Made by a program: the position numbers and the translations under genes
The notes under the pieces: generated by a model
Told to the model about the DNA's origin: nothing
Databases searched by the model: none
The model's input: only the letters and a program-made list of their open reading frames with translations
In this document: piece after piece, positions 2,160-10,290 of the stretch
Layout: each line of letters opens with the position of its first letter
Numbering within the stretch: the stretch's first letter is position 1
From: Deltaproteobacteria bacterium
Lineage (GTDB): Bacteria > Myxococcota > UBA727 > VGSZ01
Length of the DNA stretch: 28,990 nucleotides
Reading direction: 5' to 3'
NCBI GenBank assembly: GCA_016874845.1
Contig: VGSZ01000033.1
Span: 1-28,990 of the forward strand

Positions 2160-2480
2160 CGCCTCGACTGGGCGGCCCTGCTCAAGCGCGTCTTCGCCGT
2201 CTCTGTCATGGTCTGCTCGCGCAGCGACGGGGGCCGATGAAGGTCATCGCCACCATCGAGGAGCCCACCGTCGTCAAAGCCATCCTCACCCACCTCGGTC
2301 TGCCCGCCGAGCCGCTCCCCGCCGTACACGCGCGAGCCCCGCCCACGACGGGGGAGATGTTCGAAGACCCCTGAAGCAATGGTCACCGGGGGGCCAACGG
2401 TCCTTGCCCGTCGATGCTGTGACATTCGACGGGCGGAGCCGTGTCGCAGCCCGCCCGGGAGCGGCGTCGCCGGTTGCCCT
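2160..2480 (+). mobile_element. IS91/ISCR-like element 3' terminus remnant A (transposase C-terminal ~65 aa with CxxC zinc-ribbon-like tail, plus ~105-bp terminal segment); frameshifted
   Basis: Encodes RLDWAALLKRVFAVSVMVCSRSDGG / MKVIATIEEPTVVKAILTHLGLPAEPLP, a C-terminal signature I recognise from IS91/ISCR-family (Y2) transposases. A 2-bp G-run insertion relative to copy B breaks the frame. The following ~105 bp is reverse-complementary to 9973..10067. Confidence 0.45.
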
Positions 2481-2684
2481 GGGTCGTGGGGCCACGCTCG
2501 TGACGGGCCACCGGAAGCACGACGAGCGGCTCTCTGGACTCGTGCTTGAGGACTGGCTGCGGCCCTGCAGCGGAAACCAGTTGGATTGATGCTTCGCCCC
2601 GGGCGCGGTCGCCTGTTCAGTGACACCGGTGCAACAATCATAGATCCGGCGCACCATGCGTGCGCCGGCCCCGAAAACACCAGC

Positions 2685-3824
2685 ATGAACCGCCTTCGGT
2701 CTCGTGCATCGATGGGCCCCGGGGCCACGACTCGGTCGCCGACCGCTGCGGTTCCGTCCACGCCGTCGTCGGCGACGCCGACCGCCGCGGCGGCGGATCC
2801 CGCGGCGCGCGAGGCCCTGCGGCGGTCGCTGCCCGAACTGCCGGCGCCGGGGTCGACGTTGCAGATCGTGGAGAACGGACCGCGTCAGGGGGTGAACCGC
2901 AAGCACGTCCTGCAGGACGAGGCGGGCCGTCGGTACTTCTGGAAGGCGCAGGACGCCGCGGGCTTCGCGCTGCAGCGCACGCTGCTGGCCCAGGCGCTGC
3001 GGGGGCGCGCGGGCGAGGCGGTCGTGCCCGTCCGGCCCCATGACCTCACGGTGGCGGGACAGACGACGCAAGGGCTGCTGGCGCCGTTCGTGGCGTCGAC
3101 GGGCAGCCTCGACTACGCCGTGCGCACGTTCACTCCGGCCGAGCGCCACGCGGTGCTGGCGGACCTGCCGTGGGCTTTCTTCCTCGGCAACTGGGACACC
3201 AAGCCCGACCAGTACCTGCGCGTCCACGGCACCGCCGTGAACATCGACTGGGACCAGGCGCTGTCCGACTTCGGCCGTGCGCAGCCGCGGTACGACCGGC
3301 ACACCCGGGCGCACTTCTCGCCCTTGATCCCGCCGGTGCAGGCGGCGCTGCTGCTCGAGTGGGTGCATGGCCGCACCGACGCCAATCTCGACGTCGTGCG
3401 GGACAGCGCGGCGCGCATCGCCCGGCTCACCGACGAAGACCTGCAGCAGGCGGCGCAGCCCCTTGTCGACGCAGCCTTCGGCGATGGCGGCGCCGGCCTA
3501 CCCGGCCTGCGCGACCCGGCAGCGGTGTGGGCGGCCCTGCAAGGCCGGCGCGACCGCGTGGTCGACGAGACCGATCGCCTGCTCGAGGCCCTGCGGGTCG
3601 AGCGCGCCCGCCACGGTCGCCCCCTGGCCGCGCTGGACGTCCGCCTGCTGGCCGGCCGCGCCGAGGATGCGAGCCTGCGGGCGGCCATCGCCGTCGCCCG
3701 CTCGCCGCTGGTCGAGTGGCTGTATGCCGCCCGGCAGGCAGTGGGCTCGTTGCGCCGCCCGCACCCCGACGACGACGTCGGGCCGGTGGGCACATCGCCC
3801 GCGACGTCATCGTCGGCGTCGTGA
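2685..3824 (+). CDS. hypothetical protein with atypical protein/lipid-kinase-like motifs
   Basis: ORF 2586..3824; likely start at MNRL (ATG 2685). Ordered motifs resemble a kinase fold: RYFWKAQ (beta3 Lys), GNWDTKPDQYL (catalytic-loop-like), VNIDWDQA (DFG-like). The N-terminus is Ser/Pro/Thr/Ala-rich. Confidence 0.4.
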   Translation: MNRLRSRASMGPGATTRSPTAAVPSTPSSATPTAAAADPAAREALRRSLPELPAPGSTLQIVENGPRQGVNRKHVLQDEAGRRYFWKAQDAAGFALQRTLLAQALRGRAGEAVVPVRPHDLTVAGQTTQGLLAPFVASTGSLDYAVRTFTPAERHAVLADLPWAFFLGNWDTKPDQYLRVHGTAVNIDWDQALSDFGRAQPRYDRHTRAHFSPLIPPVQAALLLEWVHGRTDANLDVVRDSAARIARLTDEDLQQAAQPLVDAAFGDGGAGLPGLRDPAAVWAALQGRRDRVVDETDRLLEALRVERARHGRPLAALDVRLLAGRAEDASLRAAIAVARSPLVEWLYAARQAVGSLRRPHPDDDVGPVGTSPATSSSAS

Positions 3825-4008
3825 AACGGGCCACAGGCCGTACTGGTCCGGCGGGTCGGAGGCGTGCTCGCCAACGCCGGCCTCGAGCGCGTGGAACTCG
3901 ACGCCGAGGTCCAGTGTCGCGCGCTCGACGCGCTGCTCGAGGGCGCCGAGCGCATGCTCGAGCAGCACGTCGAGGCGCGTGCGCGGTCGCGCCCGCGACA
4001 ACGCCGCC

Positions 4009-4146
4009 TCAGCCGGCGCGGGCGGCGAGCTTGCGCACCAATGCCTCGCCGACGGCGGCGGCCGACGCGGGGTTCTGGCCGGTGACGAGGTTGCCGTGCT
4101 CGACGACCAGCACCTGCCACTTTGACTTCTTCTGATACGTCGCGCC
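4009..4146 (-). pseudogene. C-terminal fragment of a DJ-1/PfpI/Hsp31-type (class I glutamine amidotransferase-like) gene
   Basis: The ORF 4009..4335(-) ends in KSKWQVLVVEHGNLVTGQNPASAAAVGEALV, which matches the conserved C-terminal strand/helix of DJ-1/PfpI/Hsp31 proteins. The upstream part of the ORF is low-complexity TTTTTRPPPTAAPPP and is not homologous. Confidence 0.4.
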
Positions 4147-4354
4147 GAGCTTGAGCATGCGCTCCTTGAGGACGGCGACGACGACGGCGACGACGCGCAT
4201 CAACGACGACGACGCAGCGGATAGCGGTGGCGGCGCGGGCGGGCTACCCGACGACGGCGCAGGCGATGAAGGCGCTGCGGCCGGCGGTGGCGCGGCTGTG
4301 GGCGGCGGGCGGGTGGTCGTCGTCGTGATCGCCATCGGCGCGGCGGCGGCGGCG

Positions 4355-8629: not shown

Positions 8630-8749
8630 CAACCACCTCAGAAACTGCCGACGCTGGGCGAGAGGCCGCCGCTTCAGGCATCGCGCGGTCGGTCCCAGCG
8701 GTCAGAGACAACAAAGGCGCACGCAGGTCATGAACAGAGCGACGCCCCA

Positions 8750-9766
8750 TCAATTGGTCACATAGACGTAGAGGAGACACATCTCGTCGTCCGAGTTCTC
8801 GCCCCACCTCACCATCGTACTCGTGGTGTTGTTCCACGTACAGGACATGGTGAGGTGCCCCGGGGCGGTTCGCCGAGCAGCCCTGAACAGGCCAAGCGAC
8901 GTGGCGTCGACGCGACGATCGAACGCGGCATCGCGCCCGGCGTCCGCGCCCTCGCCGAGCGCACGAAAGACCGGGTCGCGCGCGAACTCGGCGTGCAGGT
9001 AGCGCGACGCCGGCAGCTCCTCGGGCAGATCGCGTCGACACGTCGGTCCGCTCAGGTTCGCGACGCTCAAGCGCGCAAACTCCGCCTCGATGCGTCGCTG
9101 GGCCATCGCCGCATCGCCGCCGCTCGACGTCAACAGCTCCTCGAAGCGCAAGCGACGCGCGTCACGCAGCGCCCGGACGATGATCGCGCTCCCCTGGCTG
9201 AACCCGACAAGCTGCAGCGACCCACCACACCGCATCGTCGCCAGCACCCGCTCCACGACGGCGCTGACGGCAGGGTTTGTCCCCTGGTCGTGGAAGTCGT
9301 CCTTCAGCTGGCGCAGGTCTTTGTGCCAGTCGGCCAGGCGGGCGGCGACCTGCAGCCGCGGGTGTCCCGGGAACTGCCGTGTCTCCGTGGCGTTGTAGAC
9401 GAGGTCGACGCTGGCCCCCCGCACGTCCGCCACGTGGCGCGCGGCAGCACGCGCGTCGTCGAGGTTTGTACCGGCGCCGTTTACGAACACGCACGTCGTC
9501 GCTGCGACCGTGGGCGCAACGCGCGGCCGCGAGGGCGCCACCGGGAACGTCCGCCCATCGAACCCGAGCATCGAAGCCGCCGCCCGCGCGGCGTGGGGGC
9601 GGAGGAGGAGGTCCGCCGCCCCGGCGGCCAACGCAAAGACGTCGCGCTTGACGACGTCGCGAACGAGGGCCGGCAAGGCGCCGGAGGCGGCCCGTCCGGT
9701 CTCGACGACCGGCGCTCCGATGGGGGCGGGACGGAGTCGGTCGCGAACGACCAGGGAGCCAGACAT
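8750..9766 (-). CDS. alpha/beta-hydrolase-like protein (GxSxG nucleophile elbow VGFSQGS)
   Basis: ATG at 9764-9766 (MSGSLVV). Motif LQLVGFSQGSAIIVRAL is consistent with a serine-hydrolase elbow. The C-terminal 30 codons are unusually AT-rich. Confidence 0.5.
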   Translation of the reverse strand: MSGSLVVRDRLRPAPIGAPVVETGRAASGALPALVRDVVKRDVFALAAGAADLLLRPHAARAAASMLGFDGRTFPVAPSRPRVAPTVAATTCVFVNGAGTNLDDARAAARHVADVRGASVDLVYNATETRQFPGHPRLQVAARLADWHKDLRQLKDDFHDQGTNPAVSAVVERVLATMRCGGSLQLVGFSQGSAIIVRALRDARRLRFEELLTSSGGDAAMAQRRIEAEFARLSVANLSGPTCRRDLPEELPASRYLHAEFARDPVFRALGEGADAGRDAAFDRRVDATSLGLFRAARRTAPGHLTMSCTWNNTTSTMVRWGENSDDEMCLLYVYVTN

Positions 9767-9885
9767 GACGCGCCTCGATGCCGGGGTATCGCCGCTCGTC
9801 CCGCGGGGGGTGCGTCGCCTCCGCCCAGTGAAGGATGGTCACGACGTCGGTCGCGTGTCGGAGTGCCGACCGCTCCGGCGTGCGC

Positions 9886-9984
9886 GGATAGGATGAACAG
9901 GGGCACTTTCCGCAAAACCACCCCGCGCCGCCTTCGAGGGGAACCAGGCCTGACCCCCTGCGAAGACACCGGCGACGCCGCTCC
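9886..9984 (+). repeat. R90 interspersed repeat, copy 4 (with 3' extension GGCGACGCCGCTCC), fused to IS91-like terminus B
   Basis: GGATAGGATGAACAGGGGCACTTTCCGCAAAACCACCCCGCGCCGCCTTCGAGGGGAACCAGGCCTGACCCCCTGCGAAGACACCGGCGACGCCGCTCC. Confidence 0.75.
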
Positions 9985-10290
9985 CGGGCTGGCTGCGACA
10001 AGGCTCCGCCCGTCGCATGTCACAGCATCGACGGGCGAGGACCGTGGGCCCCCCGGTGACCTTTGCTTCAGGGGTCTTCGAACATCTCCGCCGTCGTGGG
10101 CGGAGCCTGCGCGTTGACCGCGGGGAGCGGCTCGGCGGGCAGACCGAGATGGGTGAGGATGGCCTTGACGACGGTGGGCTCCTCGATGGTGGCGATGACC
10201 TTCATCGGCCCGTCGCAGCGCGAGCAGACCATGACAATGACGGCGAAGACGCGCTTCAGCGCCGGCGGCTGGTCGGCGCAAACACGCCGT
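9973..10290 (-). mobile_element. IS91/ISCR-like element 3' terminus remnant B (intact-frame transposase C-terminal fragment 10068..10268 plus terminal segment 9973..10067), inverted relative to remnant A
   Basis: Minus-strand ORF 10068..10364 encodes ...ALKRVFAVIVMVCSRCDGPMKVIATIEEPTVVKAILTHLGLPAEPLPAVNAQAPPTTAEMFEDP; the segment 9973..10067 is the reverse complement of 2375..2480 with a few mismatches. Confidence 0.45.

What the first reader, a model, noticed from the sequence alone, without database searches (positions are those of the whole stretch)
2160..10290. Two inverted copies of an IS91/ISCR-like 3' terminus bracket a ~7.5-kb mosaic segment
Copies A (2160-2480, +) and B (9973-10290, -) share ~300 bp: a transposase C-terminal tail (LKRVFAV..VCSRCDG.MKVIATIEEPTVVKAILTHLGLP) plus a terminal non-coding segment. 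Copy A carries a 2-bp G-run insertion that breaks the frame. No transposase body is present for either copy. Rolling-circle IS91/ISCR elements replicate from one end and can mobilise adjacent DNA. Inverted terminal remnants flanking a block of unrelated genes and gene fragments fits past one-ended transposition or recombination between copies. The R90 repeat abuts copy B and precedes copy A.
Basis: partly seen in the sequence, partly recalled or inferred. Interest (0 to 1): 0.6.

Follow-up and report, generated by a model that had tools for sequence, protein, structure and literature searches.

The report
Decayed IS91/ISCR-type insertion-sequence end remnants
The two inverted 300-bp repeats are dead tail-end remnants of a rolling-circle (IS91/ISCR-type) jumping gene, part of a 10-kb cluster of such remnants in a GC-rich environmental bacterium; this is ordinary mobile-element debris, not a working gene-moving unit.

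Summary
Arms 2180-2474(+) and 9968-10260(-) are 92.9% identical over 295 columns, and copy A carries a 2-nt GG insertion. The encoded peptide is the C-terminal extension of IS91/ISCR-family transposases.

The interpretation needs three corrections.

1. Read in inverted orientation, it is the element's true outer terminus, the oriIS module. It ends ...CCCCTGTTCTTCCTATCCGC, 184 nt after the stop codon. The same core lies at a similar distance after the stop codon in ISCR1 and ISCR2, and in 17 related loci, four of them with long or full transposase genes.

2. The window holds five oriIS modules, all in one orientation, each with a different inner truncation. There are three transposase-tail fragments (A, B, C) and no catalytic domain.

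3. The two arms are not equivalent. B has its oriIS. A ends exactly where the oriIS module should start, and the solo module at 11677-11765 begins exactly there. One inversion of 2475-11765 would rejoin them (inferred).

Rolling-circle replication runs from oriIS away from the bracketed block, so the pair cannot mobilise it.

Verdict: a new member of a known kind, in a decayed array of ori-end remnants and gene fragments. Interest is low to moderate.

The parts
2043..2140 (-). oriIS module a (R90_a). The outer end is at 2043 (core TTTTTCCTATCC, 1 mismatch to the family 20-mer). It runs through the module plus about 9 nt of the adjacent 3' non-coding segment.
2146..2374 (+). Copy A, a transposase C-terminal tail pseudogene (...SAYRLDWAALLKRVFAV...). 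It has a frameshift from a GG insertion at 2229-2230, one Cys of the CxxC is mutated, and the stop is at 2372-2374.
2375..2474 (+). Copy A 3' non-coding segment. It ends exactly at the boundary where the oriIS module should begin, and no oriIS follows.
4882..4978 (-). oriIS module d (the most diverged, with indels; core CTTCGCCTATCC) plus the last 13-16 nt of the 3' non-coding segment.
4979..5100 (-). Fragment C, a transposase linker piece (..FARPTSRLRAKVVPTPPIESPPTQCPSTAPPPAVETPS). An internal deletion joins it to the end of the 3' non-coding segment.
6009..6045 (-). oriIS stub, the outermost 37 nt with a perfect consensus core (CCCCTGTTCTTCCTATCCGC). Its inner end is fused to the AdoHcyase fragment.
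6050..6280 (+). S-adenosylhomocysteine hydrolase C-terminal fragment (Pfam profile positions 235-299 of 299).
9884..9967 (-). oriIS module b (R90_b), continuous with copy B. The outer end is at 9884 (core TTCATCCTATCC).
9968..10067 (-). Copy B 3' non-coding segment.
10068..10260 (-). Copy B transposase tail (LKRVFAVIVMVCSRCDGPMKVIATIEEPTVVKAILTHLGLPAEPLPAVNAQAPPTTAEMFEDP, then stop).
10271..10342 (-). Copy B upstream piece, from the end of the transposase core (PPLIPPMYANLTRFYGVFAPTSR). It is in another frame, and the linker between it and the tail is deleted.
10335..10838 (+). Threonine ammonia-lyase 3' fragment (TIGR01127 positions 217-377 of 380), fused to the inner end of copy B.
11677..11765 (-). 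Solo oriIS module c (R90_c; core TTCTCCCTCTCC). Its inner end at 11765 is the same element position at which copy A ends.

Best explanation
Region 2043-11765 is a decayed cluster of 3'-end (oriIS-end) remnants of one IS91/ISCR-family rolling-circle insertion sequence. The family is common in this GC-rich, probably myxobacterial lineage.

Shown. The intact 3' end of the element reads: transposase C-terminal tail, stop codon, about 100 nt of non-coding DNA, then an oriIS module of about 85-95 nt ending ...CCCCTGTTCTTCCTATCCGC. The window holds five oriIS modules, all with the outer end toward low coordinates. Their inner truncations differ: a 37-nt stub; the module alone; the module plus 9 nt; the module plus 16 nt joined to a deleted linker piece; and the module plus about 375 nt (copy B). 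There is also one tail fragment in the opposite orientation with no oriIS (copy A). No catalytic domain is present anywhere in the window. The inner ends are fused to internal points of unrelated genes.

Inferred.
1. The remnants come from repeated rolling-circle insertions at this locus, followed by deletion and recombination. Some of the insertions may have been prematurely terminated ori-end products, as shown experimentally for IS801.
2. Copy A and solo module c were one 3' end, split by a single inversion of 2475-11765 across a 5-nt inverted microhomology (CCGGT/ACCGG). This is why A now faces B.
3. The remnants are now inert. Four of five ori cores are mutated, the tails are pseudogenes, and no transposase is encoded here.
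4. The two arms cannot mobilise the block between them. Their only plausible activity is as substrates for homologous recombination.
For: Family identity:
- The tail matches NF052416 (ISCR clade Ia) at positions 444-487 of 509, E=2.6e-11. Longer relatives extend to position 397.
- The exhaustive profile search gives 13,155 hits, some at the C-terminus of 380-494-aa proteins. Those checked carry Y2_Tnp, and three (477-494 aa) also carry Zn_Tnp_IS91.

R90 is the terminus:
- In the alignment of 10 related loci, including the long-transposase loci L009 and L007, all share ...GGAAAGTGCCCCTGTTCTTCCTATCCGC and diverge immediately afterwards.
- The exact 14-mer TTCTTCCTATCCGC occurs in 17 loci, always on the tail's strand and, wherever a tail lies upstream, 157-193 nt after the stop codon.
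- ISCR1 ends GGTTTATACTTCCTATACCC 234 nt after its stop, and ISVsa3/ISCR2 ends GCGTTTATTCTTCCTATACG about 237 nt after its stop.

Cluster in the window:
- Four matches to the 20-mer lie in the window, all on the minus strand, against 0 expected. A fifth, diverged copy is found by nhmmer.
- tblastn with full-length relatives finds only C-terminal pieces.
- The flanking pieces are true gene fragments.

Precedent and direction:
- IS801 transposes 229, 360 and 679-nt right-end fragments (PMC3189936).
- Replication runs from oriIS to terIS, and oriIS lies downstream of the transposase gene (PMC6218425, PMC13181058).

Inversion: A ends ...GTCGCCGGT|TGCCC and module c ends ...GAAGACACCGG|GCAC. The intact sequence is ...GTCGCCGGTGTCTTC....

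Assembly: L029, L030, L042 and L043 reproduce the arrangement.
Against: - No full-length copy and no terIS end were found in this contig, and the left end of the family could not be defined. Activity and the exact element boundaries are therefore untested.
- The classical GTTC/CTTG tetranucleotide is not seen next to the ori ends here (flanks CTCG, TCAC, CGTG, GCAC, ATGA).
- Five of five modules in one orientation is only p of about 0.06.
- The inversion is inferred from two breakpoints. No assembly with the ancestral layout was found.
- Premature termination and later deletion cannot be told apart as the origin of the truncations. For the stub and for copy B, the flanks are not contiguous target DNA, which favours deletion or rearrangement.
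- No conserved hairpin in the ori module is supported by covariation.
Confidence: 0.75

Rival explanations
1. The two inverted termini act as a pair: the 7.5-kb block was brought in by one-ended transposition from these ends, or it flips by homologous recombination between arms A and B.
For: The arms are 92.9% identical with a 47-nt perfect run, enough for RecA-mediated exchange. The interior has lower GC (67.6% for 6046-9872 against 76.5% in the neighbouring gene) and contains gene fragments. IS91-family elements do perform one-ended transposition (PMC13181058). Recombination between 3' ends of this family may occur: L044 is a hybrid of copy B and another remnant.
Against: Copy A has no oriIS module, so it cannot initiate replication. 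Copy B's oriIS faces the block, and replication from it runs the other way, toward the threonine dehydratase fragment. The block itself contains two more ori modules and a third transposase fragment, so it is not a single unit. A crossover between A and B only swaps which arm holds the oriIS and never gives two complete ends. Four independent assemblies show only one isomer.
Confidence: 0.12
2. The oriIS modules are themselves miniature non-autonomous elements of about 90-110 nt. A full-length transposase elsewhere in the genome mobilises them in trans, through premature termination or a pseudo-ter site just inside the module. Repeated insertion next to an existing ori end builds same-orientation arrays.
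For: IS801 does this experimentally with 229-679-nt right-end fragments (PMC3189936). The outer end is constant and the inner ends vary, clustering within about 20 nt of the module boundary (module alone, +9, +16, +18 nt). Head-to-tail ori arrays occur in other contigs: L011 has 3 units with period 107, and L008, L019 and L001 have 2 units each. Same-orientation successive copies occur in L018, L021 and L033. Intact relatives exist in similar samples; L009 is 87% identical at the nucleotide level in the tail.
Against: No empty site was found for any solo module. The stub and copy B are joined to half-genes, not to contiguous target DNA. The wild-type left-end tetranucleotide is unknown, so the IS801 criterion cannot be applied. 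Tandem arrays could also arise by slippage or unequal crossing-over. Four of the five window cores are mutated.
Confidence: 0.25
3. R90 is an independent host repeat (REP- or MITE-like) that the IS prefers as an insertion target, rather than part of the IS.
For: R90 occurs solo (11677-11765) and in tandem arrays without an adjacent tail. Copy A ends exactly at the R90 boundary.
Against: The terminal 30 nt are conserved at a fixed distance after the stop codon in all clades, including distant ones whose inner R90 sequence has diverged, which is co-divergence with the transposase. The core matches the defined oriIS of ISCR1 and ISCR2 at a similar distance after the stop codon. The 100-nt non-coding segment has no ori-like motif of its own. 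R90 has no terminal inverted repeats.
Confidence: 0.05
4. The arrangement is a metagenome assembly chimera created by joining at repeats.
For: The window is a whole metagenome contig, the family is repetitive, and L044 may be such a chimera.
Against: L029 (window 1-3625, 99.9%), L030, L043 (3970-10844, 99.9%) and L042 (9461-18991, 100%) come from other samples and reproduce every repeat junction. The arms differ at 21 positions, so they would not collapse.
Confidence: 0.03

Closest known systems
ISCR1 and ISCR2/ISVsa3 (IS91-like 'common region' elements)
   Same: The C-terminal transposase tail is homologous (NF052416). An oriIS region about 200-240 nt long lies downstream of the stop codon, ending in the core T(A/T)CTTCCTAT(A/C)C. 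These elements are often found truncated, in same-orientation arrays, next to captured genes and gene fragments (the last point is from my own knowledge of the ISCR literature).
   Different: This is a different clade; tail identity to ISCR-type proteins is only about 45-55%. The host is a GC-rich environmental, probably myxobacterial, lineage. There are no resistance genes, no sigma-70-like outward promoter was detected, and no CTTG lies next to the ori end.
IS801 right-end miniature fragments (229/360/679 nt) of Pseudomonas syringae (Bardaji et al. 2011, PMC3189936)
   Same: Fragments retain the ori (right) end with variable truncation of the other side. They co-exist with full-length copies and sit near gene fragments. 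The authors likewise conclude that most genomic fragments arise by DNA reorganisation.
   Different: The criterion of a left end at a ter-like tetranucleotide could not be tested here. The fragments here are as short as 37-110 nt, and in related contigs they form tandem arrays.
IS91 / IS1294 (prototype rolling-circle IS)
   Same: Full-length relatives have the domain architecture Zn_Tnp_IS91 + Y2_Tnp + tail. The two ends are distinct, with no terminal inverted repeats. About 80-100 nt at the right end forms the functional-size ori module (82 bp in IS91, PMC13181058).
   Different: No orf121 is seen, the target tetranucleotide is not conserved, and the elements in the window are all defective.

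Membership tests
IS91/ISCR family (HUH-Y2 rolling-circle IS) | Transposase with an N-terminal Zn-binding domain (PF14319) and a Y2_Tnp catalytic domain (PF04986) | tested here: not met
   These domains are absent from the window; tblastn with P0047, P0103 and P0132 finds only C-terminal pieces. They are present in relatives that share the tail: P0103, P0132 and P0141, and loci L009, L010 and L012. The window therefore holds remnants, not a member able to act.
IS91/ISCR family (HUH-Y2 rolling-circle IS) | C-terminal tail homologous to family transposases | tested here: met
   NF052416 positions 444-487 of 509, E=2.6e-11. The profile search gives 13,155 hits, some at the C-terminus of Y2_Tnp proteins.
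IS91/ISCR family (HUH-Y2 rolling-circle IS) | oriIS end downstream of the transposase gene with the conserved terminal motif | tested here: met
   ...TTCTTCCTATCCGC lies 157-193 nt after the stop codon wherever a tail lies upstream among the 17 loci that carry it. ISCR1 has ACTTCCTATACCC and ISCR2 has TTCTTCCTATACG, 234-237 nt after the stop. There are five copies in the window.
IS91/ISCR family (HUH-Y2 rolling-circle IS) | A distinct terIS end upstream of the transposase gene | tested here: inconclusive
   No upstream region is present in the window. In the full-length loci, the point where homology begins could not be fixed.
IS91/ISCR family (HUH-Y2 rolling-circle IS) | Target tetranucleotide (CTTG/GTTC/GTCC) abutting oriIS | tested here: not met
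   The flanks after CCTATCCGC are CTCG, TCAC, CGTG, GCAC and ATGA in the window. Only L038 has GTTC. The clade may have a different specificity, or none.
IS91/ISCR family (HUH-Y2 rolling-circle IS) | Transposition by rolling-circle replication from oriIS to terIS | not testable with these tools
   This needs a transposition assay.
Composite unit bracketed by two functional IS ends | Both ends carry a functional terminus oriented so that the enclosed DNA is moved | tested here: not met
   Copy A has no oriIS. Copy B's oriIS faces the block, so replication leaves it (direction from PMC6218425 and PMC13181058). No transposase is encoded.
IS801-type miniature ori-end transposition products | Intact right end, left end at a tetranucleotide like the wild-type left end, inserted into contiguous target DNA | tested here: inconclusive
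   A right end is present but mutated in 4 of 5 copies. The wild-type left end is unknown. The stub and copy B are joined to half-genes, not to contiguous targets.
MITE / REP-type independent repeat (for R90) | Own terminal inverted repeats or a stable structure, and a distribution independent of any IS | tested here: not met
   R90 has no terminal inverted repeats. Its folding energy is no better than shuffles, with z from -1.6 to +0.7. There is no Rfam hit and no covariation. It is always at a fixed distance from the tail in relatives.

The most novel reading that the evidence does not exclude
The oriIS module of about 90-110 nt is a self-sufficient miniature rolling-circle element. It would be the shortest IS91-family derivative known. 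A transposase supplied in trans would copy it, and re-use of the site next to an existing ori end would build head-to-tail ori arrays and same-orientation clusters. These could then capture and shuffle adjacent gene pieces in environmental myxobacteria, much as ISCR elements do with resistance genes.
Probability: 0.2. Interest if true: 0.5.

Novelty: new member of a known kind. Interest (0 to 1): 0.3.

Why it matters
The main value is for annotation. The finding defines the 3' end and oriIS motif (…CCCCTGTTCTTCCTATCCGC) of an undescribed IS91/ISCR-type clade that is widespread in metagenomes. Its tail-only ORFs are currently called 'hypothetical protein'.

It also shows that the oriIS core of clinical ISCR elements is conserved in a distant, GC-rich environmental lineage. 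And it gives a natural example of ori-end remnants in same-orientation clusters and tandem arrays, fused to gene fragments. That is useful material for anyone studying how rolling-circle IS elements truncate, capture DNA and scramble genomes.

It does not reveal a new mechanism.

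Tried and rejected
- **Pfam on the tail alone:** no hit. NCBIfam and a profile search were needed to place it.
- **Rfam on the whole window:** nothing.
- **R90 as a structured RNA or DNA element:** folding energies are no better than shuffles. The RNAalifold consensus is weak, with a covariation term of about 0.
- **Outward promoter in the ori region, as in ISCR1:** no sigma-70-like site anywhere in 1-12500. Host promoters may differ from the consensus used.
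- **In-situ flip of only 2146-2474 to explain copy A next to R90_a:** rejected. R90_a keeps about 9 nt of the 3' non-coding segment that copy A also has.
- **GTCTTCGC as a transposase cleavage hot-spot** (it sits at the module boundary and in the RVFA and GVFAP codons): rejected. The octamer is absent from the full-length relatives L009 and L007.
- **Defining terIS from full-length loci:** homology start points disagree and contigs are too short.
- **Looking for the alternative isomer or ancestral layout in other assemblies:** none found. The 412-aa product is not on record, and L046 breaks inside ori module c.
- **Tail as a domesticated small protein:** rejected. A is frameshifted and B has no intact upstream frame. 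Substitution density is similar in coding (15 of 193) and non-coding (6 of 100) parts.

Full report
**1. The observation**

The window is GC-rich, 63-80% in 500-nt bins. It is an entire 28,990-bp JGI metagenome contig: the exact 45-aa copy-B ORF, P0028, has a longest contig of 28,990.

The inverted repeat is real.
- The repeat finder reports 2231-2474 / 9968-10211 (244 nt, 94%) and 2165-2231 / 10209-10275 (67 nt, 84%).
- A local alignment gives 2180-2474 against 10260-9968: 92.9% over 295 columns, with 21 differences. These include the 2-nt GG insertion at 2229-2230 that breaks copy A's frame. The longest identical run is 47 nt.
- Both boundaries are sharp.
- R90 copies lie at 2032-2131, 9873-9972 and 11666-11765. 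A diverged copy lies at about 4878-4965 and a 37-nt stub at 6009-6045. All are in the same orientation.

**2. What the peptide is**

Pfam sees nothing in the short tail. Other searches place it clearly.
- NCBIfam NF052416 (ISCR element clade Ia transposase) matches at model positions 444-487 of 509, E=2.6e-11. Longer relatives (P0015) extend the match back to position 397.
- The word-indexed search returned 35 close homologues, all 45-126 aa and all unannotated.
- The exhaustive profile search found 13,155 proteins. In some hits of 380-494 aa the tail is C-terminal. Those checked carry Y2_Tnp, and three (477-494 aa) also carry Zn_Tnp_IS91.

This is an IS91/ISCR-type transposase C-terminus.

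**3. All IS-derived pieces in the window**

tblastn with long relatives and frame-by-frame reading show three transposase-derived fragments and no catalytic domain.
- **Copy A** (2146-2374, plus strand) starts at ...SAYRLDW.
- **Copy B** is longer than the repeat. A piece, PPLIPPMYANLTRFYGVFAPTSR (10342->10271), lies in another frame. The low-complexity linker is then deleted, and LKRVFAV... runs to the stop at 10068-10070.
- **Fragment C** (about 5100->4979, minus strand) carries the linker (...TSRLRAKVVPTPPIES..QCPSTAPPPAVETPS). An internal deletion joins it to the last 13-16 nt of the 3' non-coding segment.

The inner end of copy B is fused to the 3' 43% of a threonine ammonia-lyase gene (TIGR01127 positions 217-377 of 380). 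The 37-nt stub is fused to the last 65 profile positions of an AdoHcy hydrolase.

**4. R90 is the true terminus (oriIS module)**

In the independent contig L002, the tail and the 100-nt non-coding segment are followed by an inverted R90 at exactly the same junction as copy B...GGAGCGGCGTCGCCGG|TGTCTTCGCAGGGGG....

I fetched 3 genome and 34 metagenome loci with the tail profile. Three lines of evidence agree.
- In an alignment of ten loci, including the long-transposase loci L009 and L007 and the distant L016 and L021, every sequence shares ...GGAAAGTGCCCCTGTTCTTCCTATCCGC. All diverge from each other immediately afterwards. The inner part of R90 has diverged along with the transposase clade.
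- The exact 14-mer TTCTTCCTATCCGC occurs in 17 loci, always on the tail's strand. Wherever a tail lies upstream it sits 157-193 nt after the stop (184 nt in copy B). These include L006, L007, L009 and L010, which carry long or full transposase genes.
- I checked my recollection of the family consensus on annotated plasmids. ISCR1 ends ...GGTTTATACTTCCTATACCC|CTTG 234 nt after its stop. ISVsa3/ISCR2 ends ...GCGTTTATTCTTCCTATACG about 237 nt after its stop.

The literature gives the same geometry. ISCR1 has a 232-bp oriIS region downstream of its transposase gene (PMC6218425). The last 82 bp of IS91 suffice as oriIS (PMC13181058).

So the element's 3' end is: tail, stop, about 100 nt, then an ori module of about 85-95 nt. 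In the window the family 20-mer has 4 matches with at most 3 mismatches, all on the minus strand, against 0 expected. The fifth copy is more diverged. Only the stub has the consensus core; the other four are mutated.

**5. The pattern of truncation**

Every fragment keeps the outer (ori) end and differs at the inner end.

| Fragment | Extent from the outer end |
|---|---|
| Stub (a similar truncation occurs in L008) | 37 nt |
| Units in L008 and L011 | about 68 nt |
| Module c | module alone |
| Module a | module + 9 nt |
| Module d | module + 16 nt |
| L011 repeat units | module + 18 nt |
| Copy B | module + about 375 nt |

The short database proteins also truncate at many different points.

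Head-to-tail ori arrays exist elsewhere: three units of period 107 in L011, and two each in L008, L019 and L001. Successive same-orientation copies occur in L018, L021 and L033.

The closest experimental precedent is IS801. There, 26% of trapped IS801 insertions were 229-, 360- or 679-nt right-end fragments made by premature termination. The same authors nevertheless concluded that most genomic fragments arise by reorganisation (PMC3189936).

I cannot separate these two origins here. The wild-type left end could not be defined. For the stub and for copy B, the flanks are half-genes rather than contiguous targets, which favours deletion or rearrangement.

The loci were fetched through the tail, so the excess of 3' fragments outside the window is biased. 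Inside the window the search was unbiased and still found only 3' pieces.

**6. The two arms are not a functional pair**

In this family, replication runs from oriIS through the transposase gene to terIS. One-ended transposition carries DNA beyond terIS (PMC6218425, PMC13181058).
- Copy B's oriIS (outer end at 9884) faces the 7.5-kb block. Replication from it would run toward the threonine dehydratase fragment, away from the block.
- Copy A has no oriIS at all.
- The block itself holds two more ori modules and fragment C.
- A crossover between A and B would only swap which arm owns the oriIS.
- Four assemblies from other samples reproduce the present layout: L029 (window 1-3625), L030, L043 (3970-10844) and L042 (9461-18991). 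None shows the flipped isomer.

**7. Why A faces B (inference)**

Copy A ends ...GTCGCCGGT|TGCCC at 2474. Solo module c ends ...GAAGACACCGG|GCAC at 11765. The intact element reads ...GTCGCCGGTGTCTTC.... These are the same element position, and the two halves are complementary.

A single inversion of 2475-11765 across the 5-nt inverted microhomology CCGGT/ACCGG would rebuild one complete 3' end. It would also put the 2586-3824 gene divergent from the 11832 gene. In none of the fetched loci where the non-coding segment and the ori module are seen together is the element broken at this boundary. One event splitting one element is therefore more economical than a hot-spot.

I estimate about 0.45 for this inference. 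No assembly with the ancestral layout was found.

**8. Present state and host**

The substitution density is similar in the coding tail (15 of 193) and in the non-coding segment (6 of 100). A is frameshifted and has lost a Cys, and B has no intact upstream frame. The remnants are pseudogenes.

The host is probably a myxobacterium. Close homologues are named from 'MAG: Deltaproteobacteria bacterium', and genome hits are Myxococcales and Deltaproteobacteria MAGs. This is an inference.

Intact relatives exist in similar samples. L009 has an uninterrupted reading frame and is 87% identical at the nucleotide level in the tail. Trans-mobilisation of a good ori module is therefore conceivable, but it is untested.

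**9. Verdict**

The IS91/ISCR assignment is correct. The 'bracketing pair' reading is not supported.

The region is a decayed cluster of ori-end remnants of an undescribed IS91/ISCR-type clade, mixed with small genes and gene fragments. It is a new member of a known kind. Interest is 0.3, mainly for the oriIS definition and the ori-module arrays.

Noticed in passing
L044:1-1584 compared with window 9879-10980 and L037: L044 is identical to the window across the threonine dehydratase fragment, copy B and the 3' non-coding segment. It then switches to the sequence of another remnant (L037: consensus ori module followed by an ADH_N gene). The switch lies inside a 97-nt stretch that is identical in all three. 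This is either a real homologous recombinant between two IS 3' ends or an assembly chimera.
   Followed up: partly
L011:115-389; L008:1071-1178; L019:1089-1207; L001:10424-10570: These contigs carry head-to-tail tandem arrays of the oriIS module. In L011 there are three units with period 107 nt, each being the module plus 18 nt of the 3' non-coding segment. The origin (rolling-circle re-initiation or slippage) is unknown.
   Followed up: partly
L008:~3005-3030; L016:~4370-4395; proteins P0009, P0012, P0022, P0023, P0027, P0029: A 24-nt in-frame insertion, GGGGCCCGAAGGGTTCCCCTGTGG (GARRVPLW), sits at the same site (RVFA^VDV) in tails from two different clades. P0047 has a longer insertion at the same spot.
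   Followed up: partly
window 8422-8604: About 11 copies of a 12-nt tandem repeat (GTCAGGCTTCAC/G) encode (KPDV)n near the N-terminus of the 706-aa amidohydrolase-like ORF at 6512-8632(-).
   Followed up: no
window 6046-9872: This segment has lower GC (67.6%, down to 62.8% in one bin) than the neighbouring large gene at 11832-16763 (76.5%). That hints at a foreign origin for the interior genes.
   Followed up: no
window 16829-18000 (L045:7369-8540): Two small ORFs lie just after the 1643-aa gene. The first has a weak precomputed DUF772 (transposase-domain) hit, so this may be another, unrelated IS.
   Followed up: no
L017:108-278(-) and 3374-3765(+): Another contig carries two inverted tail remnants about 3.1 kb apart. 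Here the 3' ends point outward, the opposite of the window.
   Followed up: no
window 5101-5841(-) (L043:5004-5744): The precomputed table assigns DUF6311 to this 246-aa product, but my Pfam scan of the 263-aa ORF found nothing. It abuts fragment C and may be a gene fragment.
   Followed up: no
JGI sample 3300059473, 201-kb contig (no DNA available): A tail-only ORF (P0004, 89 aa) sits directly after an Imm11 immunity-protein gene with no transposase nearby. This is another orphan tail in a long contig.
   Followed up: no
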